DNA from: Candidatus Iainarchaeum sp.
GTDB taxonomy: Archaea; Iainarchaeota; Iainarchaeia; Iainarchaeales; JAXPJC01
Assembly: GCA_016187745.1 (NCBI GenBank)
Contig: JACPJC010000006.1
Span: forward strand, 104,005-168,004
DNA: 64,000 bases
Direction: 5' to 3'
Shown here: in pieces, positions 15,997-56,705 of the stretch
Layout: each line of letters opens with the position of its first letter
How positions within the stretch are numbered: position 1 is the stretch's first letter
Position numbers and translations under genes: made by a program
Notes under the pieces: model-generated
The model's input: only the letters and a program-made list of their open reading frames with translations
What the model was told of the DNA's origin: nothing
Databases searched by the model: none

Positions 15997-16653
15997 TTAC
16001 CTTATGCTCAGGCCCTGGAGGGTTTTGAACATTCTTATGTCCGCGTCAATTTCTGAGAGCTTTTCCTTCAGGCTGCCTAATTTCTTCTTTGAAACCTCAA
16101 TCCTGAAATTCTGCAAATCATCGGAGTATTTTGCGAGCTTCCTGTGCTTTTTGTAAACTACCGAGTGCTGCACTGTTTCCGTAAGCTGCTTGCGGTAATC
16201 AATGTTATTCACAAACATATTCACCATGGGCTTCCAGCGCTTGTCGCTTACAAGGTGCGCAGGGAGCTTTACCGCTTCCGCATCGTTCTTGTAGTCCTTG
16301 CTTGTTGCTGCCTTCAGAAGATGCTTCCAGTAAAGCGGCTCTGAAAGCTTTTTGAAGTGCTGTGTAATTTCATAGGATTTTGCTGAATTCTGCTTTTTCT
16401 TCCAGGAGCCGTGCTGCTTCTGCAGGCTTGATCTCATTTCCTCGAGCTCCTTTATCTGGGAATTTATCCTGCTCCTGCTTGGATATGATAATTTAGGCCA
16501 GTCGTTTTCCCTTTTTTCCGCGATTGAAATTACCCCTCCTTTGGAGAAATAGCGCCTGAAGGCTTCAGCAATCCCGCCCTTGCCGTGCCTTTTCACCATT
16601 TCCGGGAAATTGCTCTCAAAGCTTTCAAATGATGAAATTATCTCATTGGCCAT
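15997..16653 (-). CDS. Hypothetical basic helical/coiled-coil protein
   Basis: 218-aa ORF with SD-like GGGGTTGA upstream; Lys-rich heptads. Confidence 0.7.
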   Translation of the reverse strand: MANEIISSFESFESNFPEMVKRHGKGGIAEAFRRYFSKGGVISIAEKRENDWPKLSYPSRSRINSQIKELEEMRSSLQKQHGSWKKKQNSAKSYEITQHFKKLSEPLYWKHLLKAATSKDYKNDAEAVKLPAHLVSDKRWKPMVNMFVNNIDYRKQLTETVQHSVVYKKHRKLAKYSDDLQNFRIEVSKKKLGSLKEKLSEIDADIRMFKTLQGLSIR

Positions 16654-16682
16654 CTCAACCCCGAATCCTATAAATTAGATTA

Positions 16683-16806
16683 TGTTGGAGGGAGTTTATA
16701 AGATTTTTGAAGGAGAGGAAGGTATCGGAAACCTAAGGTTTCTGATTAAGGGAGGTATCGGAACCGCAGGTTCTGATTGTTGGAGGGAGTTTATAAGATT
16801 TTTGAA
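16683..16806 (+). repeat. 29-bp perfect direct repeats enclosing two related triloop hairpins (hairpin element, site A)
   Basis: TGTTGGAGGGAGTTTATAAGATTTTTGAA at 16683-16711 and 16778-16806. Hairpins ATCGGAAACC-TAA-GGTTTCTGAT (16724-16746) and ATCGGAACC-GCA-GGTTCTGAT (16757-16777). Confidence 0.93.
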
Positions 16807-16813
16807 TTTATAT

Positions 16814-17515
16814 ATGAGCGGAATGTGCGCGATAAAGGCAATCATATTTGACATGACCGACACAATCCTTGAGTTTGATTTTCGGAGGATGCGGGAGGAA
16901 TTCGGGAAAATAATAAAGGGGCATGAGTGCACTAGGCATCTGGCAATTGGGCAGTTCATGGACGCCTATAAAGAGGCATATGACTCATACCAGAGGGGGG
17001 AAATTCAGAACGATAATGCTTTCTGGGAAAAGATGTTTGGACTGCTTAAAGTTAATCCGAAAAAAGGGGAATTCAGGGGCATAATGAGAAGGCATCTGGC
17101 TTCGAGAAGAAAATTCGTAAAATTGCACAGGCACGCGGGGCATATTTTCGGAAGGCTGAAGAAAAAATACAGGCTTGCAATCCTATCGAATGCAGTGAGG
17201 AATTGGGCGGATTATGACTGGAAGTTCCTGAAATTCAATCCGAAAAAATATTTTGATGTGCAGCTCTACTCTCAGGACACACGCCTGCTTAAGCCGGAGA
17301 GAAAGGCTTTTGAACTTGCTCTGCGCAAATTAAATGTAAGCGCAAAGGAGGCGCTTATGGTCGGGGACAACGAAAGCCAGGATATTCTGGGAGGCAATAG
17401 CGCGGGACTTGTTACAGTGTTTCTTGCAAACAAGTACAGGCTTTCCGGGGCGGTAAAGCCGAGGTTTGTGGTCAATTCATTGGAAGAAATTGAAAAAATT
17501 GCGGGGGAAATGTAA
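16814..17515 (+). CDS. HAD-superfamily hydrolase
   Basis: IIFDMTDTI, ILSN, KP, MVGDNESQDILG. Start placed at ATG 16814; the longer ORF-track N-terminus runs through the repeat element. Confidence 0.88.
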   Translation: MSGMCAIKAIIFDMTDTILEFDFRRMREEFGKIIKGHECTRHLAIGQFMDAYKEAYDSYQRGEIQNDNAFWEKMFGLLKVNPKKGEFRGIMRRHLASRRKFVKLHRHAGHIFGRLKKKYRLAILSNAVRNWADYDWKFLKFNPKKYFDVQLYSQDTRLLKPERKAFELALRKLNVSAKEALMVGDNESQDILGGNSAGLVTVFLANKYRLSGAVKPRFVVNSLEEIEKIAGEM

Positions 17516-17889
17516 TGGGCGCGAGGAAATATGTAATTCCAGAACAAATAACTGGCGCTGCACGCAAAAACATAGCTGTCGGCTTGAAGTATGCCAGGCC
17601 GGGGGATTACATTGATAGGCTGGCAATGGCAAAACTGCAGCAGCTTGCAAGGGGCGAGCTTGCAGGAAGGGTTATTGAAAGGCTTGAATCTTATAAAAAG
17701 GAGAATTTAAGCCCAATCAAAAAGCTTGCTGTGCTATTGCGGGTTTTGAAAAAGCTTAAGCGGAAACCGACAGGAATCCAGCAGAAAATGGCGGATGGGA
17801 TTATTGATGAATTTATGATGGACGCATTGCAGAATGCTGAATTGTCAAATGAGGAATTAAGCAGGCTTCTGAGCCAGTGGAGAAGATGA
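17515..17889 (+). CDS. Hypothetical basic helical protein
   Basis: TAATG overlap with the HAD gene; 124 aa. Confidence 0.65.
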   Translation: MGARKYVIPEQITGAARKNIAVGLKYARPGDYIDRLAMAKLQQLARGELAGRVIERLESYKKENLSPIKKLAVLLRVLKKLKRKPTGIQQKMADGIIDEFMMDALQNAELSNEELSRLLSQWRR

Positions 17890-18803: not shown

Positions 18804-18845
18804 ACAACCTGAATTTTAATATACTACTTGTTCTATAATAGAACT

Positions 18846-21800
18846 ATGCCCAGGACTGAAAAAGGACAGGCCGCGCTTGAGTATCTGATGACCTATTCCT
18901 GGGCGCTTGTTGCAATTGCAATAGTCATTGGAGTGCTTATTTTCATGGGAATTTTGAAGGCGCCTTCTGCTGGAACTTGCACAGGGCTTGAGAAGCTTGC
19001 ATATGAGGACCATACCATAGATTCCAACGGGAATTTCATTCTCTACTTAAAAAACGGGGCAGGAATGCAGATTGCCATCAACAGCATATCGCCGGGTGAA
19101 GATTTCAGCGGAAATTGCAGCGCAAGTTCCGCAATAATAAATGCAACAAAGGATTTCAATATTGTGTGTATCAATACAGGAATAAGCGCAGGCCAAACTT
19201 ATAATGGAAAAATAACAATTGAGTATATGCGCAGGAATGCAAAGCATACCGAAAGCGCGGCATGCTCAGGAACAGCGCCCTTGAGCGGGATATTTTTGGT
19301 TGCCCCTGCCCCGCAAATCATTGAGGGCTTTTTCAACGGTTCAGGGAACAATGTTGACCTGAACAACCCTGACGAGATGACGCTTGGGGGCGGAGGGGGT
19401 AGTTATGCATTTTTTGGCAGTTATACTTCGGATGTTTTTGATGCAAACTCAACAATGGACTGGACCGCAAGCATCTCATGGGATGAGAACGCTCCGGCAG
19501 GAACTGACATTAATTTACAAACAAGAACTTCTGACAATAATGTTGCATTTAGCGCATGGAGCGGCTATTACACAAATCCTTCAGGAGAAGCAATTACCTC
19601 CCCTAATGGGCGCTTCATACAATATAAAGCGAATTTGAGCACTACAAACCCGGCGCTTACGCCGAGATTATTGGAAGTGAGAATGCATGGGAACCCTCTT
19701 GCGCAGAGCTGCGGCAATCTGAAAAGGGAGGGAAGCGAACAATGCGATACAAATGACCTGGCAGGATCAAATTGTGTTTTATTGGGCTATTCTTCAGGCG
19801 CCCTTGCGTGCAAGGCAGACTGCACATTTGATACGAATGGATGCGTTGGCGCAACTACTACAATGCTTTGCCCTGGCAGCAAAACCTGGACTTCCCAATC
19901 AGATTGGCAGTCCGGGGCGCTTGCAAATATTGATGCTACTTCAAGCCCTGGCAGCATAAAGCTTTCGCAGCCATCAACCTCAGGAACATGGAACATTGTT
20001 GTTGATTCAAATGCCGCGCCAACAGACTGGAATGCGATAAGCTGGAGCGAGGACTTGAATTATGGGGGAGAGCTTGCAGGAGATGCTAACACAAAATTGC
20101 TTTTGCATTTGAATGAGGTCTCGGGTTTAACTGCTGCAGATGCAAGCGGGAATGGGAACAATGGAACACTAACAAACGGAGCAACATGGACTTCTTCAGG
20201 GAAGTTTGGGAATGCATTGGGCTTTGATGGAATAAATGACTACATTGATGTTTCCAATGAGTCTCTTTTTGATTTTGAAAGAACTTCTCCATTTACACTA
20301 AGTGCATGGGTTAAGTGGGCTTCAGGCACTACACAAACCTTATTATCCAAACAAACAAGTGCTGGCAACGCACCAGGATGGTTATTGATTGTTAATGCAA
20401 ATGGAACTCTGGCAATGTGGCTCGTAAATGATGCAGGTGCGGGTTGGAATCTAATACATGTCGATTCGGTGAGTTCTATAGGGCTGGGGACATGGAATCA
20501 TGTAGTAATGACTTATGATGGTTCGAGTACTGCGGCCGGAGTAAAGTTGTTTATAAATGGCAATCAAAGCGGGACAACAATAGTAACAAATACGCTTTCA
20601 GCTTCTATTCTCAACAATGTTGATGTGTGGATAGGAAATAGGCAATTTGCTGACATACCATTCAATGGTACAATTGATGAAGCTGCTATATGGAATAGAG
20701 CACTGGGTGCAGGTGAAATCCTTGAGCACTACAAGCGCGGCGCGCTGAATCTTCGATTTAGGACAAGAAGCGCACCAACGCAAGGCACCTTGAGTTCTGC
20801 TTCATGGGGTGGCTATTACACAGAATCCCCTTCAGCAATAGCTTCGCCGAACAACAAGTGGATTGAGGTTCAAGCATTGCTTGAAAATTCAGATGCAAAC
20901 TATACAAATTACACGCCAGTGCTGAATGATGTAAGCATCAGTTGTGCTGGCGCTCAAGGCAATCAGGCTCCTTTTGCAGGGCTTGGCGCTTCAGCATATT
21001 CGGCAAATGCTGGAAGCTATATTGCTTTTTATGGGAATACCTCCTATGACCCTGACGGGAATATTGTGAATTATGCGTGGAATTTCGGGGACGGGAATGC
21101 AGTTGCAAGCCCGGCAAACTATCCGCTGGGCGCAAAGACATTATTGCGTTTTGATGAGGGAATTGATTCGGCAGCAGGTGATGCGAGCGGAAACAACAAT
21201 GGTGGAACAATAAGCGGGGCTGCTTGGACCTCTTCAGGAAAGTTCGGGAATGCGCTCGCTTTTGACGGGGTTGATGATTATGTTAATTTGCCGCAAAAAA
21301 TTACAGATGCCGAAGGAACCATATCGGCATGGATTAAAACCGGCGGCGATGTTAGCAGCGCGCAAAGGATATATTCCCAATCCACAGGGGGCGCAAGCAG
21401 CAACAGGGTAGCAGTTACGATTTTGTCTGGGGCTTTCCGTTTTGACGCAGGATTTGCGCCAGGAGGAGTTCAGTTGGATATTGGCAATGTCCAGCCAAAT
21501 ACCTGGTATCATATAGTGTGGACAAGTGATGGCTCCACGATTAAAGGATATGTAAATGGGGCAAACCAGGCTTTAACTGTTACGGGGGGGAGCAACAGCG
21601 GCCAATGGTTCAGCGGCATAACCTCAAATTATGCCAGGATCGGCAATATGCGCTATGATGATATCTCAGGAAACATCCAATATTTCAACGGCACAATCGA
21701 TGAAGTTGCAATTTATAATCGCGCATTGGGCGCAGGCGAAATACTTGCCTTATACCAGGGCGGCCCTGCAGTAGTGTATCATAAGTACAATCTCGCAGGA

Positions 21801-24293
21801 GATTATAATGTTGTACTTACAGTAACTGATAATAATGGCGCAACTGATGCAAACACCGTGAGCGTAAGCATCACTTCAGGCCCGATAAGCTTCTGCCCGG
21901 GGACAAAAAGCTGGACAACGCAGGCTGATTTCAATTCAGGAAGCGATGTAAATGCTGACACTTATTCAGATCCCGGAAGCATAATTTTAACAAAAAGCGG
22001 GGAAATAGCGCCTGATGCAAACACAAAGCTGCTTATGCATTTTAATGCAAATCCGCAAACGCATTTGGGAACGGAAATGGATTCTTCAGGAAACGGAAAT
22101 AATGGAACGGTTTATACAAATGAGGGCGCAACAAACAAGGCAGTTGCAGGAAAATTCGGAAGCGCTTTGGGCTTTGATGGCATTGATGACCGCGTATCCG
22201 TCCCGGACAGCGATTACTGGAATCTGGGTTTATATTTCACTATTGGCATGTGGGTTAAATTCCAGAGCGGAACAATAGACAATGAGCATTATTTGCTGGG
22301 CTATAATTACGGGAGCAATAACAGGAATTTCTGGGTGGCATACCAGGGGCAGCTTTCGCCGGATCAGCTGCATTTTAATTTTGCCACTGACGGCTCAGGC
22401 GGCCACTTCGGGGGCATGAGCGTTGCATGGACGCCTAATGCAGGGCAGTGGTATAATATTGCAATTGTGAGAAATAGTGCTGATTTGAAGATGTTTATAG
22501 ATGGCATGCAGATCGGCTCCACTTACAATATCGGCGCAACGAGCATGTGGGCCGGCTCAACAGCAGGCATAGAAATCGGTTCGGGGCACAATTCCCGCCA
22601 TAGCGGCGAAATGGATGAAGTTGCAGTCTGGAACCGCGCGCTTTCTCCAAGCGAAGTCCTTGCGCTTTATCAGAGCGGCTCGGCATACCGCCCTTCAGGC
22701 ACATGGAACGGAGTATTTGATTCAAATTCAATTGCAAGCGGCTGGAACACAATAAATTGGGGCGAGGATTTGAATTACGGCGCTGAACTTGCAGGGGATT
22801 CCAATACAAAACTGCTTTTGCATCTGAATGAGGGTTCTGGAACAACTGCAAATGATTCAAGCGGCAATGGGAACAATGGGGCATTGTTTAACGGCCCTAT
22901 CTGGACTTCTTCAGGAAAGTTCAGGAATGCGCTGCAGTTTGATGGAACTGATGATTATGTGAAATTCTCGGCAGCAAATATGCCTACAGGGGAAAGAACA
23001 GTTGAATTGTGGTTCTATAACACAGACACAACAGCGGTGGGGGCAAGGCAGATATTCGGATATGGGGGGAACAGCAACAGCCCCGCATATTCTTCATTTT
23101 TGATTTACTCCTCCGCAGATAAGAAGGGAATTACTGCCCATATGCATTATCCCGGGGGCGGGATCCTGAATTATGCAGGAACTTCGCCGATGACCAATGC
23201 CTGGTATTACTTGGTGCTCACAACTGACGTGAGCGGAAGCAGGCTTTACATAAATGGAAGGCTGGTTGATTACAATGCAGTAACCCCTTCAACATATGTT
23301 TCGGGCAAAGATGGATTTGTGGGTGCAATGCCTTCAGGCAGCGGCACTGGAACCTATGTTGACCCGAATTATCCCTATTGGAAGGGGAATATAGATGAAG
23401 TTGCAGTTTACAACGCAGCGCTGGACGCAAATAAGATACTTGAGCATTACAGGAAGGGCGCCGCAAATATAAGATTGAGGACAAGAACTGCCGCATCGCA
23501 GCTGGCATTGAGCAGCGCGGAATGGAGCAATGAGAATGAGATTGATGCGAATTCTGACATCAATGGATTGTGGCACTTCAATGAAGGAAGCGGCAGCATT
23601 GCAAGCGACTCAAGCGGAAATGGGAATAACGGAACATTGATGAATGGAGTGGCATGGGCTTCTTCTGGAAAGTTTAAGAATGCGCTGCAGTTTGATGGGG
23701 TTAATGATTATGTTAACATAATTAAATCTGATGAGTTTCATTTAGGAGCGGGTAGTTTTGCTGTTACAGCATGGGTTAACTTTGCGGGGTTAGCCGGAAA
23801 TCAGAATATTCTTGCGTTTTATACCATTGCCAATCAGGCTTTGCAATTTGCTTGGAGTACAAACGTTTTAACTGTTTGGGGCGAAACAAGCACTGTTTTA
23901 AGCACATCAGGATTTTCCCCAACTCTTAACAGATGGTATCACGTTGCATTTGTAAGAAACGGGAATGCCTGGAATATTTATGTTGATGGCACGTCATATG
24001 CCAGTGCAACTGATGCGAGAACTTTAAATTATCCGAAGGATAATATTGGGATAGGCGTTCTGCCTACGTCCTTGCAATATTTCAACGGCAAGATAGATGA
24101 ACTTGCAATTTGGAACAGGGGATTAAGCGCAGGCGAAGTGCTCGGGCTTTACAAGAGAGGCAAATATTACACGGCAGGCCCGAGCGCAATAACAAGCGAT
24201 GCCAACAGGTTCATTGAGGTGCAGGCGCTCCTGGAAACTGAAAATTCCTCTTACACGCCGGTGCTGCAGGATTTGAACATAAGCTGCTCTTAG
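18846..24293 (+). CDS. Giant pilin-like surface protein: class III signal peptide, Cys-rich repeat, PKD domain, five LamG domains
   Basis: KG|QAALEYL plus hydrophobic helix; five 'FDGxxDxV...DExAxxNxAL' LamG units; WNFGDG...HKY...LTVTD PKD motif. Confidence 0.9.
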   Translation: MPRTEKGQAALEYLMTYSWALVAIAIVIGVLIFMGILKAPSAGTCTGLEKLAYEDHTIDSNGNFILYLKNGAGMQIAINSISPGEDFSGNCSASSAIINATKDFNIVCINTGISAGQTYNGKITIEYMRRNAKHTESAACSGTAPLSGIFLVAPAPQIIEGFFNGSGNNVDLNNPDEMTLGGGGGSYAFFGSYTSDVFDANSTMDWTASISWDENAPAGTDINLQTRTSDNNVAFSAWSGYYTNPSGEAITSPNGRFIQYKANLSTTNPALTPRLLEVRMHGNPLAQSCGNLKREGSEQCDTNDLAGSNCVLLGYSSGALACKADCTFDTNGCVGATTTMLCPGSKTWTSQSDWQSGALANIDATSSPGSIKLSQPSTSGTWNIVVDSNAAPTDWNAISWSEDLNYGGELAGDANTKLLLHLNEVSGLTAADASGNGNNGTLTNGATWTSSGKFGNALGFDGINDYIDVSNESLFDFERTSPFTLSAWVKWASGTTQTLLSKQTSAGNAPGWLLIVNANGTLAMWLVNDAGAGWNLIHVDSVSSIGLGTWNHVVMTYDGSSTAAGVKLFINGNQSGTTIVTNTLSASILNNVDVWIGNRQFADIPFNGTIDEAAIWNRALGAGEILEHYKRGALNLRFRTRSAPTQGTLSSASWGGYYTESPSAIASPNNKWIEVQALLENSDANYTNYTPVLNDVSISCAGAQGNQAPFAGLGASAYSANAGSYIAFYGNTSYDPDGNIVNYAWNFGDGNAVASPANYPLGAKTLLRFDEGIDSAAGDASGNNNGGTISGAAWTSSGKFGNALAFDGVDDYVNLPQKITDAEGTISAWIKTGGDVSSAQRIYSQSTGGASSNRVAVTILSGAFRFDAGFAPGGVQLDIGNVQPNTWYHIVWTSDGSTIKGYVNGANQALTVTGGSNSGQWFSGITSNYARIGNMRYDDISGNIQYFNGTIDEVAIYNRALGAGEILALYQGGPAVVYHKYNLAGDYNVVLTVTDNNGATDANTVSVSITSGPISFCPGTKSWTTQADFNSGSDVNADTYSDPGSIILTKSGEIAPDANTKLLMHFNANPQTHLGTEMDSSGNGNNGTVYTNEGATNKAVAGKFGSALGFDGIDDRVSVPDSDYWNLGLYFTIGMWVKFQSGTIDNEHYLLGYNYGSNNRNFWVAYQGQLSPDQLHFNFATDGSGGHFGGMSVAWTPNAGQWYNIAIVRNSADLKMFIDGMQIGSTYNIGATSMWAGSTAGIEIGSGHNSRHSGEMDEVAVWNRALSPSEVLALYQSGSAYRPSGTWNGVFDSNSIASGWNTINWGEDLNYGAELAGDSNTKLLLHLNEGSGTTANDSSGNGNNGALFNGPIWTSSGKFRNALQFDGTDDYVKFSAANMPTGERTVELWFYNTDTTAVGARQIFGYGGNSNSPAYSSFLIYSSADKKGITAHMHYPGGGILNYAGTSPMTNAWYYLVLTTDVSGSRLYINGRLVDYNAVTPSTYVSGKDGFVGAMPSGSGTGTYVDPNYPYWKGNIDEVAVYNAALDANKILEHYRKGAANIRLRTRTAASQLALSSAEWSNENEIDANSDINGLWHFNEGSGSIASDSSGNGNNGTLMNGVAWASSGKFKNALQFDGVNDYVNIIKSDEFHLGAGSFAVTAWVNFAGLAGNQNILAFYTIANQALQFAWSTNVLTVWGETSTVLSTSGFSPTLNRWYHVAFVRNGNAWNIYVDGTSYASATDARTLNYPKDNIGIGVLPTSLQYFNGKIDELAIWNRGLSAGEVLGLYKRGKYYTAGPSAITSDANRFIEVQALLETENSSYTPVLQDLNISCS

Positions 24294-56139: not shown

Positions 56140-56571
56140 ATGCGGAAGGGGCACATGCTGACCCTCGATGCCGCATTCTCAATAGTCATACTTATGGCCC
56201 TTGTGGGGATCATGGGCTATGTGCCATTGATGGGGAGCAACGACCCCTACTCCGGGCTCAATATGCAGAGGAGCATGAATGATGCGCTTGACCTGCTTGA
56301 TGCGCAGGGGGTCCTGCAGCAGTTTGATTCGAATAAAATTTCCACGGAGATAGATTCAGCAATGCCCGTGCAGTATTCGTGGAGGATGCGCATTGAGAAA
56401 TTCTCCTATGCGAATGACTCATTTACGGAAAGGGATGAGATAAATTTCGGCGCGGGCGATGCAAACCTCTCGGGAAAGGATTTGATGCACGGGAGAAGGC
56501 TTTTCCTTACATTTAAGGACAATGAAATTGAGTATTTCTATGATGCGCAGTACTGGGTATGGGTGAAATGA
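56140..56571 (+). CDS. Minor pilin-like protein
   Basis: KG|HMLTLDA plus hydrophobic helix. Confidence 0.8.
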   Translation: MRKGHMLTLDAAFSIVILMALVGIMGYVPLMGSNDPYSGLNMQRSMNDALDLLDAQGVLQQFDSNKISTEIDSAMPVQYSWRMRIEKFSYANDSFTERDEINFGAGDANLSGKDLMHGRRLFLTFKDNEIEYFYDAQYWVWVK

Positions 56572-56705
56572 TGGGGCAGAAGGAAGGGGTCAGGATTAAC
56601 CTCAAAACTAAGGAAGGTATCGGAAACGTAGTTTCTGATGGAAAACTGGTGGAAACCTTGGTTTCCCGCGGTTTGGTGCGGGTGAAATAATGGGGGGCAG
56701 GGGAA
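56561..56705 (+). repeat. Hairpin element site B, bracketed by an imperfect duplication of the stop/start junction
   Basis: TAAGGAAGGTATCGGAAAC-GTA-GTTTCTGAT (56609-56639) and GGAAACC-TT-GGTTTCC (56651-56666). Flanks GGGTGAAATGATGGGGCAG (56561) and GGGTGAAATAATGGGGGGCAG (56680). Confidence 0.85.
56571..56690 (+). CDS. 39-aa mini-ORF spanning the hairpin element
   Basis: MGQKEGVRINLKTKEGIGNVVSDGKLVETLVSRGLVRVK*. TGATG overlap upstream and TAATG overlap downstream. Confidence 0.5.
   Translation: MGQKEGVRINLKTKEGIGNVVSDGKLVETLVSRGLVRVK

What the first reader, a model, noticed from the sequence alone, without database searches (positions are those of the whole stretch)
16683..16806. Unrecognised hairpin element: paired triloop hairpins inside a perfect 29-bp duplication
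Seen: exact 29-bp direct repeats (containing TATA-like TTTATAAG) flank a 66-bp insert made of two units of GGWAGGT-ATCGGAA(A)CC-N3-GG(T)TTCTGAT. A third unit lies 40 kb away at 56609-56639. The inner stems differ in a compensated way (AAACC/GGTTT, AACC/GGTT, AAAC/GTTT) and the loops are always 3 nt (TAA, GCA, GTA). All three keep a G-T pair at stem position 4 that pairs only on the + strand. Established: REP sequences and IS200/IS605 ends are imperfect ssDNA hairpins with a short 5' motif read by HUH enzymes, but these do not make long target duplications. Inference: a dispersed non-autonomous element or protein-binding hairpin that spreads with long local duplications; here it has duplicated a divergent promoter region.
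Basis: partly seen in the sequence, partly recalled or inferred. Interest (0 to 1): 0.8.

Follow-up and report, generated by a model that had tools for sequence, protein, structure and literature searches.

The report
Tiny mobile hairpin that hugs tRNA genes
The two hairpins inside a duplicated 29-base promoter piece are one insertion of a roughly 30-base hairpin module that is scattered through this small archaeal genome and many other archaea, sits hard against tRNA and 16S rRNA ends and inside tRNA introns, and copies a stretch of its target when it lands.

Summary
An exact 29-nt direct repeat (16683-16711 = 16778-16806) flanks two units of GGRAGGT plus a 9-10-bp hairpin. A third unit lies at 56619-56639.

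It is a family, not a local oddity:
- 20 copies lie in this 0.96-Mb archaeal genome.
- 18 of 151 genomes of the order carry it.
- An exact-pattern scan found more than 111 stretches in MAGs labelled as many archaeal phyla and some CPR bacteria.
- The G·T wobble is kept in 85 of 86 distinct copies.

Position and polarity are strict. 42 of 142 copies touch a tRNA gene, always with the hairpin end facing the mature tRNA part: the 5' end (sense), the 3' end (antisense) or the intron edge. Other copies precede 16S rRNA, lie in 5' leaders, or sit in frame in S17, Gins51 and HerA.

Long flanking duplications (17-66 nt matches) occur in 21 of 141 copies, at 18 loci. The junction at the hairpin end is precise and the 5' side is ragged.

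Best reading: a non-autonomous mobile hairpin module with long, variable target duplications, here duplicating a divergent BRE/TATA promoter. No Y1 transposase, reverse transcriptase or Cas1 co-occurs, so the mobilising enzyme is unknown. I found no description in print.

The parts
16683..16711 (.). Left copy of the duplicated target (DR1), 29 nt. It holds a purine-rich BRE-like stretch and the TATA-like box TTTATAAG (16695-16702).
   Evidence: 100% identical to 16778-16806.
16717..16746 (+). Unit 1: 5' motif GGAAGGT (16717-16723) + hairpin ATCGGAAACC-TAA-GGTTTCTGAT (16724-16746).
   Evidence: CM hit G000:C5:120714-120752, 44.5 bits.
16750..16777 (+). Unit 2: 5' motif GGGAGGT (16750-16756) + hairpin ATCGGAACC-GCA-GGTTCTGAT (16757-16777). 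This is the majority form in other genomes.
   Evidence: CM hit 44.6 bits. Alignments A1 and A2.
16778..16806 (.). Right copy of the duplicated target (DR2). It starts at the first base after hairpin 2. Its TATA-like box (16790-16797) lies about 26 nt before the ATG at 16823.
   Evidence: offset 0 after the hairpin.
16814..17515 (+). HAD-family hydrolase gene. The likely start is ATG 16814 or 16823. The frame is also open back to 16682 through the element, probably without meaning.
   Evidence: ORF; the Pfam Hydrolase domain starts at residue 51 of the 277-aa reading.
15997..16653 (-). Divergent 218-aa gene with no Pfam family. It shares the promoter region that was duplicated.
56580..56681 (+). 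102-nt composite member. It holds the core (motif 56612-56618, hairpin 56619-56639) and a second hairpin GGAAACCTTGGTTTCC (56651-56666). It was inserted at the stop/start overlap of two pilin-like genes.
   Evidence: local alignment (score 173; 3 gaps, 2 mismatches) to the copy at G000:C5:170558(-). (fold).
56561..56579 (.). Left flanking repeat of the composite (GGGTGAAATGATGGGGCAG).
   Evidence: It matches 56680-56700 with one substitution and a 2-nt indel.
56680..56700 (.). Right flanking repeat of the composite (GGGTGAAATAATGGGGGGCAG). It carries the start codon of the downstream gene.

Best explanation
The finding is one insertion, a head-to-tail pair, of a family of very small non-autonomous mobile modules.

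The core is about 30 nt: (A)AGGRAGGT, then a 9-10-bp hairpin ATCGGAAMC / GKTTCTGAT with a conserved G.T wobble and a free 2-7-nt loop.

Shown:
- The module is dispersed. Identical copies lie at unrelated loci within one genome.
- It is patchy among relatives yet nearly identical across distant lineages.
- It lands with polarity. The hairpin end is joined to the target within 0-4 nt, while the 5' side carries 0 to about 100 nt of extra sequence.
- Recent-looking copies are flanked by target duplications, seen as repeats of 17-46 nt at single insertions.

In the window the pair landed in the promoter shared by a 218-aa gene and a HAD hydrolase gene. The 29-bp duplication gave each side its own BRE/TATA copy, so the insertion could be neutral. 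Transcripts from the left copy would begin with the two hairpins.

Inferred:
- The fixed 3' junction, ragged 5' junction, variable duplication length and tandem arrays fit a nick-primed or target-primed copying step that starts at the hairpin's 3' end better than a fixed-stagger transposase.
- Copies persist where the host removes or tolerates them: tRNA leaders, trailers and introns, 5' UTRs and protein linkers.

The enzyme is not identified.
For: Family size and spread:
- 18 exact pattern matches in the genome against 0 for the reversed control.
- 19 strong CM hits plus 1 interrupted copy.
- 4 copies share an identical 31-nt core (GGAAGGT + hairpin, GAAGG loop) upstream of tRNA-Arg, Rrp4, PolB and 16S; with the 7 nt before it, 37 nt are identical in 3 of them and differ by one base before PolB.
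- 18 of 151 genomes of the order have hits, at 1-19 copies each.
- More than 111 stretches in genome contigs, against about 3 expected by chance by my own estimate.

Flanking duplications:
- 21 of 141 copies (18 loci) score 12 or more. The highest score among 141 shuffled controls was 8.
- The right repeat starts -2 to +4 nt from the hairpin end.
- The minimal inserts are 31 nt in L192, L217 and L258.

Insertion shown by comparison:
- G000's S17 has about 12 extra N-terminal residues (10 of them element-encoded) that the short N-termini of 18 of the 23 relatives whose CxHG motif was located lack.
- One relative has a degenerate copy just before the ATG. Two have remnant-like N-termini. One more, G035, has a long N-terminal extension that I did not interpret.

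Longer variants: the 5' extra sequence of one copy recurs upstream of another copy in the same genome.

Polarity at tRNA genes, 42 of 142 copies:
- 13 sense at the 5' end.
- 12 antisense at the 3' end.
- 15 antisense in introns, 14 of them within 0-4 nt of the predicted 5' splice site.
- 2 sense in introns.
- 0 with the motif side facing the tRNA.

Assembly is supported by a second sample.
Against: - No mobilising enzyme co-occurs. Y1_Tnp is absent from G000, G004 and G082. RVT_1 and Cas1 are found only in G001 among the multi-copy genomes.
- The three TnpB-like genes of G000 are not next to any copy.
- No empty allele was seen.
- 120 of 141 copies show no flanking repeat.
- A relative at about 89% identity (run X6) already carries hairpin 2 at this locus, yet the two 29-mers are still identical. 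That needs constraint on both promoter copies, or gene conversion.
- The near-invariant sequence across phyla, and some shared positions (before L7Ae in two families, before S17, before RNase HII), could also mean function.
Confidence: 0.58

Rival explanations
1. A host cis-acting RNA signal. The Shine-Dalgarno-like GGRAGGU plus hairpin would be kept by selection at the start of transcripts and at RNA processing sites, for example as a terminal stem that stabilises or marks leader, trailer and intron fragments, or as a site for a conserved RNA-binding factor. Its spread would be secondary.
For: - Sequence, not only structure, is nearly invariant over distant lineages, including the G.U wobble (85 of 86 copies).
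- Compensated changes occur at stem pairs 1, 2, 3 and 8.
- The hairpin abuts RNase P, RNase Z and splice sites and the 16S 5' end.
- In G000, 18 of 20 copies run with the gene they precede or sit in. A TATA-like box lies about 25-38 nt upstream of about 10 of them.
- Three exosome cap genes (DnaG, Csl4, Rrp4), L3, S17 and Spt4 are preceded by it.
- It lies before L7Ae in two families; in G037 that is the only copy found.
Against: - Both orientations occur at like places. It is sense before RNase HII in G001 and antisense in G023.
- Antisense copies lie in introns and in an ORF (L042).
- Copies sit in coding frames.
- Copies decay at the S17 site in relatives.
- 133 of 151 genomes of the order lack it.
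- Flanking target duplications and tandem arrays are marks of insertion.
- There are about as many uncompensated as compensated stem changes.
- No Rfam family matches.
Confidence: 0.2
2. A REP- or IS200/IS605-type single-strand DNA element. A short 5' motif and an imperfect hairpin would be read by a Y1 HUH enzyme (RAYT or TnpA) acting in trans.
For: - The anatomy fits: a conserved 5' motif plus an imperfect palindrome whose mismatch tells the strands apart.
- Y1_Tnp genes exist in G001 (5), G049 (2) and G023 (1 partial).
- Three TnpB-like genes lie in G000.
Against: - No Y1_Tnp in G000 (91% complete), G004 or G082, which have 19, 16 and 7 copies.
- The Y1 genes of G001 are not near its copies.
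- These families insert without target duplication (recalled knowledge), whereas long duplications are seen here.
Confidence: 0.1
3. Scars or ends of integrase-borne elements that target tRNA genes. The repeats would be att sites and the hairpin an arm sequence next to attP.
For: - In L217, L258, L274, L230, L280, L215 and L179 the repeat is the tRNA 3' part from the T-loop to the end plus trailer.
- A tyrosine recombinase gene lies just downstream of the tRNA at three element loci: two paralogues in G004 and one Bathyarchaeia-labelled contig.
- Anticodon loop and T-arm are known integration points of archaeal viruses (passages of PMC4090602).
Against: - Repeats at non-tRNA loci have arbitrary sequence: the window promoter, the RpoD 3' end, L175, L192, L176 and L277.
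- Inserts are as short as 31 nt.
- The recombinase family is in 140 of 151 genomes, and G000 has no match at E<=1e-10, so it does not track the element.
Confidence: 0.07
4. Mis-assembly or a private local slippage duplication with no wider meaning.
For: Short-read assemblers can collapse or invent short repeats. Contigs of X4 and X6 break at the hairpin.
Against: - A 32.5-kb contig spans the site. A second sample gives both junctions with 0 differences.
- The same architecture recurs at 18 loci in many assemblies.
Confidence: 0.03

Closest known systems
REP / BIME elements with RAYT (REPtrons) of bacteria
   Same: A short conserved 5' motif followed by an imperfect palindrome. Dozens of dispersed copies. 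A strand-specific mismatch in the stem.
   Different: - No RAYT/Y1 gene in three multi-copy genomes.
- Copies lie in frames, introns and leaders, not only between genes.
- Tandem rather than inverted pairs.
- Long flanking target duplications.
- Spread over phyla rather than one species group (that REPs are species-group-specific is recalled).
Rickettsia palindromic elements (RPE; recalled: Ogata et al. 2000)
   Same: A palindromic selfish repeat found in RNA genes and inserted in frame in essential protein genes, where it is translated. The mobilising mechanism is unknown.
   Different: About 30 nt against 100-150 nt. An archaeal host range. Strict polarity against tRNA ends. Long target duplications. 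No sequence relation was tested.
tRNA intron transposition in Thermoproteales (Fujishima et al. 2010, as summarised in passages of PMC4090602)
   Same: Similar sequences in introns of unrelated tRNA genes imply movement of intron sequence between genes. The mechanism is stated as unknown.
   Different: Here the shared module also lies outside introns (leaders, trailers, mRNA, promoters), leaves target duplications, and is shared across phyla.
Mobile GC-cluster hairpins of yeast mitochondria (search listing only for PMC4478555) and the byp elements derived from them (recalled)
   Same: Hairpin modules of 30-60 nt that spread within a compact genome, enter coding regions and leave short duplications.
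   Different: Organellar. GC-rich in an AT-rich genome. Short fixed target duplications. No link to tRNA processing sites.
Insertion sequences with long or variable target duplications (IS1202 and IS1634 groups; recalled from ISfinder descriptions)
   Same: Target duplications of about 17-29 bp or more are possible for DDE transposases.
   Different: Those are kilobase elements with terminal inverted repeats and a transposase gene. No such parent was found. Here the only inverted repeat is the hairpin itself.
Target-primed retroposition (LINE/SINE type) and hairpin-targeting group IIC introns (recalled)
   Same: A fixed 3' junction, ragged or extended 5' ends, variable-length target duplications, and insertion beside stem-loops or tRNA genes.
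   Different: No reverse transcriptase in G000, G004, G049, G082 or G023. No poly-A. A prokaryotic host.

Membership tests
REP/RAYT (REPtron) | Conserved short 5' motif followed by an imperfect palindrome, in many copies | tested here: met
   Alignments A1 and A2. 20 copies in G000.
REP/RAYT (REPtron) | A Y1 HUH (RAYT) gene in the same genome | tested here: not met
   PF01797: 0 matches in G000, G004 and G082. Present in G001, G049 and G023, but not beside copies.
REP/RAYT (REPtron) | Insertion without target duplication, extragenic | tested here: not met
   21 of 141 copies have flanking repeats of 17-66 nt. Copies lie in S17, Gins51, HerA and tRNA introns.
IS200/IS605 end or PATE | The hairpin equals the sub-terminal hairpin of a resident IS (TnpA/TnpB element) | tested here: not met
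   The three TnpB-like loci hold none of the 22 CM hits of the genome.
MITE | Terminal inverted repeats bounding the element and a short target duplication of fixed length | tested here: not met
   The only inverted repeat is the 9-10-bp stem, and the 5' motif lies outside it. Duplications vary from 17 to 46 nt at single insertions. One CPR locus (L214) has the hairpin inside a longer unit with about 20-nt inverted ends.
CRISPR array | Three or more regularly spaced repeats with differing spacers; cas genes | tested here: not met
   The window has two 29-mers only. Arrays such as L217 have identical 'spacers'. Cas1 is absent from G000, G004, G049 and G082.
Archaeal BHB intron | Two 3-nt bulges around a 4-bp helix at the element's boundaries | tested here: inconclusive
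   The window units fold as plain hairpins without bulges. In tRNA introns the splice motif has to be made by exon plus intron tail, and I traced a plausible hBHBh' by eye from the fold output (not a tool result) in one case only (L187).
Any Rfam family | Covariance-model match | tested here: not met
   0 matches at gathering score in the whole window. 0 at E<=10 in 16640-16860.
Target-primed retroelement (non-autonomous) | Fixed 3' junction, variable 5' end, variable-length target duplication | tested here: met
   Right repeat offset is -2 to +4 nt from the hairpin. The sequence between the left repeat and the hairpin is 0-106 nt. Repeats are 17-46 nt at single insertions.
Target-primed retroelement (non-autonomous) | A reverse transcriptase available in the cell | tested here: not met
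   PF00078: 0 in G000 and 0 in G004, G049, G082 and G023; 2 in G001. Genomes are 91-99% complete, and plasmids or viruses were not sampled.
C/D box sRNA or K-turn (L7Ae site) | Box C RUGAUGA with box D CUGA, or tandem sheared G.A pairs next to a 3-nt bulge | tested here: not met
   Read from the sequence: only CUGA at the 3' end, no box C. The stem is fully Watson-Crick or G.U.

The most novel reading that the evidence does not exclude
The module is a cross-phylum selfish RNA/DNA hairpin that needs no enzyme of its own.

- Host tRNA processing (RNase P, RNase Z, splicing endonuclease) would cut it out with the hairpin exactly at one end.
- This fragment would be copied back into DNA at nicks, priming from the hairpin's 3' end.
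- That would create long target duplications and, when it lands in an anticodon or T loop, a new tRNA intron.

It would then be a living source of archaeal tRNA introns, of new leaders and promoters, and of short peptide insertions in essential proteins.
Probability: 0.2. Interest if true: 0.92.

Novelty: new variant of a known kind. Interest (0 to 1): 0.74.

Why it matters
Three reasons, if the mobile reading holds.

1. Origin of tRNA introns. How archaeal tRNA introns arrive is an open question. Passages of PMC4090602 call the mechanism of intron transposition unknown. The abstract and passages of a 2026 preprint on Asgard tRNA introns say that how introns arrive remains open. Here one recognisable module makes up the 5' end of introns in many different tRNAs. 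The same module is caught elsewhere with fresh target duplications. Arrival can therefore be studied with filled and empty sites.

2. Size and reach. It would be among the smallest mobile units known. It has a reach across archaeal phyla, and perhaps CPR bacteria, without a recognisable transposase. This points to an unknown or host-borne insertion route that duplicates 17-46 bp of target.

3. Effects on very small genomes. It duplicates promoters (this window). It makes a 43-aa ORF between two genes (56559-56690). It adds 10 residues to ribosomal protein S17 and to the linker of Gins51. It supplies the stop codon of GatE.

If instead it proves to be a host signal, it is an unrecognised RNA motif at tRNA and rRNA processing sites.

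Tried and rejected
- Empty site for the window locus: the metagenome-contig scan with the HAD protein gave only distant relatives (36% identity or less over the best segment) among the best 80 of 140. The laid contigs of 4 runs showed no joints.
- RNA evidence: no RNA holder was listed, so expression and RNA ends could not be examined.
- Run X6: a relative at about 89% identity carries hairpin 2 at the locus, with 18 gap letters somewhere in 16223-16776. I could not place the gap.
- Processing-stem idea for 16S (a sense copy 5' pairing with an antisense copy 3'): the G000 trailer holds no complementary copy.
- Anti-Shine-Dalgarno covariation: the G000 16S ends in the usual GGATCACCTCCT although its copies mostly read GGAAGGT.
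- Resemblance of the antisense strand to the 16S 3' end (helix 45 + tail): about 18 of 26 positions against a bacterial-type sequence that I recalled. Not tested with a tool and set aside, because the loop varies.
- Neighbour clustering: 1266 ORFs from the loci yielded only housekeeping families and one tyrosine recombinase family. That family is in 140 of 151 genomes, so it does not track the element.
- Enzyme searches: Y1_Tnp, RVT_1, Cas1, TnpB and integrase gave no co-occurring enzyme.
- Rfam: nothing.
- Literature: seven full-text searches, including the element's sequence as a search term. The only sequence hits were three unrelated papers (primers). Subscription journals and supplements were not searchable, so prior description cannot be excluded.
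- My first window pattern had the wrong spacing and found nothing. Corrected.
Full report
**1. The observation**

TGTTGGAGGGAGTTTATAAGATTTTTGAA occurs at 16683-16711 and again, 29 of 29 identical, at 16778-16806. The 66 nt between hold two units:
- GGAAGGT + ATCGGAAACC-TAA-GGTTTCTGAT (16717-16746)
- GGGAGGT + ATCGGAACC-GCA-GGTTCTGAT (16750-16777)

A third unit lies at 56619-56639. The pattern ATCGGAA-N5-11-TTCTGAT gives 3 matches in the window and none in 100 shuffles. The + strand folds more stably than the - strand (-21.4 against -14.4 kcal/mol), because stem position 4 is G.U on one strand and A.C on the other.

The assembly holds up:
- A 32.5-kb contig of run X1, possibly the source, spans the site without a difference.
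- In X4, another sample of the same study, two error-free contigs give DR1 + both hairpins (16322-16777) and hairpin 2 + DR2 + gene (16749-17616).
- No joint, that is no empty allele, was reported in the four runs laid.

**2. A family, not a local oddity**

The window is G000:C5:104005-168004 of a 963,943-base, 10-contig archaeal genome, 91% complete. It carries Cdc6/Orc1, a Hel308-like helicase and NAC (read by eye), and archaeal 16S rRNA.

Copies in this genome:
- The pattern has 18 exact matches there and 0 for the reversed control.
- With two slightly changed copies there are 20.
- A covariance model built from 39 copies finds 19 strong hits and the interrupted twentieth, with no tail of weak ones.
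- Four copies share an identical 31-nt core (GGAAGGT + hairpin, loop GAAGG) although they lie before tRNA-Arg, Rrp4, PolB and 16S rRNA. Including the 7 nt before the motif, three of them are identical over 37 nt and the PolB copy differs by one base.

Copies elsewhere:
- Among 151 genomes of the same order, 18 have hits at E<=1e-3, with 1 to 19 copies each. Hits lie in families f1, f2, f5, f9, f13, f14, f16, f23, f24, f27 and f32.
My estimate of the chance expectation is about 3 in 596 Gb.
- The record titles name Iainarchaeum, Woesearchaeota, Nanoarchaeota, Altiarchaeota, Bathyarchaeia (7 MAGs, contigs up to 321 kb), Aenigmatarchaeota, Micrarchaeota, Undinarchaeota, a Methanosarcinales MAG, and three CPR bacterial MAGs.
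- Labels of MAGs can be wrong through mis-binning. The single Poribacteria hit lacks the 5' motif and may be chance.
- One viral-collection contig has it beside a tRNA-Ser gene.

**3. Anatomy**

In 86 distinct copies (87 model hits at E<=1e-3 in 82 loci):
- The stem is almost invariant in sequence.
- The G.T pair at position 4 is kept in 85.
- Pair 8 is C-G in 69 and A-T in 17, never unpaired.
- Single copies show compensated changes at pair 1 (G-C, C-G), pair 2 (C-G) and pair 3 (T-A).
- About ten single uncompensated changes also occur.
- The loop is free: 2-7 nt, with GTA 21, GCA 17, TAA 8 and GAA 7.
- The 5' motif reads A-[AG]-G-G-[GA]-A-G-G-T.

On the pattern-selected alignment A1, pair 22-31 is the only one that could vary, and it always covaries. 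Variable loop length and the strand-specific wobble argue for a folded single strand (RNA or DNA) rather than a double-strand operator. No Rfam family matches, even at E<=10.

**4. Where the copies sit**

In G000:

| Position | Detail |
|---|---|
| Before 16S rRNA | 1 nt from the 5' end |
| Before tRNA-Arg | 4 nt from the gene |
| Before an intron-containing tRNA | 1 nt from the gene |
| 5' regions of genes | DnaG, Csl4, Rrp4, L3, Spt4, PolB, the HAD gene and two unnamed ORFs |
| In frame | N-terminus of S17, the linker of Gins51, the acidic N-region of a HerA-like ATPase |
| End of GatE | supplies the stop codon |
| Between genes | two pilin-like genes |
| Antisense | after RpoD |

18 of the 20 run with the gene they precede or sit in, 1 is antisense and 1 is unclear. 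About ten have an A/T-rich TATA-like box 25-38 nt upstream of the hairpin (read), so the module would be at or near the 5' end of the transcript.

Over all 142 distinct copies I held, 42 touch an ARAGORN tRNA gene:
- 13 in sense, abutting the 5' end (gap -1 to 4 nt).
- 12 antisense, abutting the 3' end (gap -3 to 9).
- 15 antisense inside introns. 14 of these are 0-4 nt from the predicted 5' splice site; the fifteenth is the second of a tandem pair.
- 2 in sense inside introns, 0 and 14 nt from the 3' splice site.
- None has the motif side towards the tRNA.

Further cases:
- In G001 an antisense copy follows the 16S 3' end by 4 nt.
- Three loci have it antisense in a T-loop intron.
- Several short introns (41-56 nt in the cases examined) are essentially the antisense module plus a short tail.
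- In one case (L187) I could trace by eye a canonical helix-bulge-helix-bulge-helix made by the anticodon loop and that tail.

**5. Evidence of insertion**

(a) Flanking repeats. I compared the sequence just after the hairpin with the 160 nt before it.
- 21 of 141 copies score 12 or more. The maximum of 141 shuffled controls is 8 (first seen).
- They lie at 18 loci in many assemblies.
- Non-tRNA targets give 29 nt (window), 29 (L175), 28 (L192), 27 (L176), 29 with one mismatch (after RpoD), 25, 21, 17, 17 and 17.
- tRNA targets give 20-46 nt at single insertions (32-66 nt where tandem units overlap), running from the T-loop to the tRNA end plus trailer (L217, L258, L274, L230, L280, L215, L179).
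- The right repeat begins -2 to +4 nt from the hairpin end.
- The left repeat is followed by 0 to 106 nt before the hairpin start.
- The shortest inserts are 31 nt (L192, L217, L258).

(b) The window's third copy is a 102-nt composite (56580-56681). It aligns (local score 173; 3 gaps, 2 mismatches) with the copy at C5:170558 and is flanked by GGGTGAAAT[G/A]ATGGGG(GG)CAG. The duplicated stop/start overlap turns the insert into a 43-aa ORF.

(c) Orthologue comparison. The CxHG motif was located in 24 of the 30 S17 loci (G000 and 23 relatives).
- 18 of the 23 relatives start M-(1-5 residues)-C-[KNSTV]-D-x-x-C-[PA]-x-H-G.
- G000 has MAEEQKKEVIGNAVSD before the same cysteine. About 12 residues are extra, 10 of them encoded by the element.
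- G023 has a degenerate copy ending 1 nt before the ATG.
- G025 and G024 have N-termini that look like decayed remnants (KGNAVK, REVGV).
- G035 has a long N-terminal extension that I did not interpret.

(d) The extra 5' sequence of one G004 copy recurs upstream of another copy of that genome (27 nt, 93%). Longer variants are therefore also copied.

(e) Tandem arrays and 5' half-copies before full copies are common.

**6. What moves it**

No answer.
- Y1_Tnp (PF01797) is absent from G000, G004 and G082. It is present, away from the copies, in G001, G049 and G023.
- RVT_1 and Cas1 are found only in G001 among the multi-copy genomes tested.
- G000 has three TnpB-like ORFs without TnpA. None is near a copy.
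- Clustering 1266 neighbouring ORFs gave housekeeping genes and one tyrosine recombinase family next to three element-bearing tRNA loci. That family occurs in 140 of 151 genomes and gave no match at E<=1e-10 in G000.

The combination of a precise junction at the hairpin 3' end, a ragged or extended 5' end and a variable duplication length is what target-primed copying gives (recalled from LINE/SINE biology). It is not what fixed-stagger transposases give. This is inference. The lack of a reverse transcriptase counts against it unless the enzyme sits on unsampled plasmids or viruses, or a host polymerase does the job.

**7. The window locus**

The 29-mer holds a purine-rich stretch and TTTATAAG. 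In the right copy this box ends 26 nt before ATG 16823, the likely start of a leaderless HAD mRNA; the Pfam domain begins at residue 51 of the long reading. The 218-aa gene on the other strand starts at 16653. I infer the following:
- One promoter region served both genes.
- The pair of modules landed in it.
- The duplication left each gene with a copy.

The relative in run X6 (about 89% identity) already has hairpin 2 with both flanks, so the event is not very recent. The perfect identity of the two 29-mers then needs constraint or conversion. This is unexplained.

**8. Rivals**

A host RNA signal remains possible (0.2). Cross-phylum sequence constancy, the wobble, the places at processing sites and some shared positions speak for it: before L7Ae in G037 and G004, before S17, before RNase HII. 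Against it stand both orientations at like places, residence in frames, decay at orthologous sites, absence from 133 of 151 relatives, and the target duplications. The two readings can both be true, as a mobile module that is partly domesticated.

The other rivals, with their evidence, are given in their sections: the REP/IS200 reading (0.1), att scars (0.07) and artefact (0.03).

**9. Novelty**

Seven full-text searches, one with the sequence itself, found no description. I read passages only of PMC12558985, PMC4090602 and the 2026 Asgard preprint. Supplements and subscription journals were out of reach.

I file it as a new variant of the small palindromic repeat elements. It has unusual traits: about 30 nt, no terminal repeats, 17-46-bp target duplications, strict polarity at tRNA/rRNA processing sites, intron residence and cross-phylum spread.

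Noticed in passing
G000:C1:220822-220900 (-), locus L159: One copy is split after GGAAGGTAT by a roughly 50-nt AT-rich perfect hairpin (AAAAAATCGGCAA...TTGCCGATTTTT). This is a second kind of small palindromic insertion in this genome.
   Followed up: no
window 56559-56690: A 43-aa ORF (MGEMMGQKEGVRINLKTKEGIGNVVSDGKLVETLVSRGLVRVK) is made wholly of the 102-nt composite element plus the duplicated stop/start overlap of two pilin-like genes.
   Followed up: partly
G000:C4, about 30-85 nt downstream of the 16S 3' end: The 16S trailer holds GGAGAAGGTATAGG, which resembles the family's 5' motif. It is followed by a different 10-bp hairpin (GGTTTTACCC...GGGTAAAAAC). An intron-containing tRNA-Ala follows.
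   Followed up: no
L027:1381-1560 (tRNA-Gly intron, 106 nt): Besides the antisense element, the intron holds two perfect-palindrome variants (CAGAACCC..GGGTTCTG and CGGAACC-TGC-GGTTCCG). These are the two forms expected if the G.T mismatch were resolved either way.
   Followed up: no
L214, L243, L255 (MAGs labelled CPR bacteria): A 10-bp-stem variant sits inside a longer multi-hairpin unit. In L214 that unit is bounded by inverted repeats of about 20 nt (CTAGTGTTTCATTCATTT / AAATGAATGAGACACTAG), like a MITE.
   Followed up: no
L187, L199, L269, L218 (tRNA introns): The intron tail often carries GAGG(T), which can pair with the element's ACCTCC and form a second small hairpin next to the first.
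   Followed up: no
window 18828-24293 (+): A 1821-aa ORF with repeated LamG-like modules and an N-terminus like an archaeal class III (pilin-type) signal. Read, not searched.
   Followed up: no
G000:C8:69540-69734, C1:265794-265988, C1:263173-263373: Three TnpB-like (Cas12f1-like_TNB) ORFs of 389-440 aa lie in a genome where no Y1 TnpA was found.
   Followed up: partly
G000 copies upstream of DnaG, Csl4 and Rrp4 (L001, L003, L006): Three genes of the archaeal exosome cap are each preceded by a sense copy. This may be chance in a genome rich in information-processing genes, or a hint of shared regulation.
   Followed up: no
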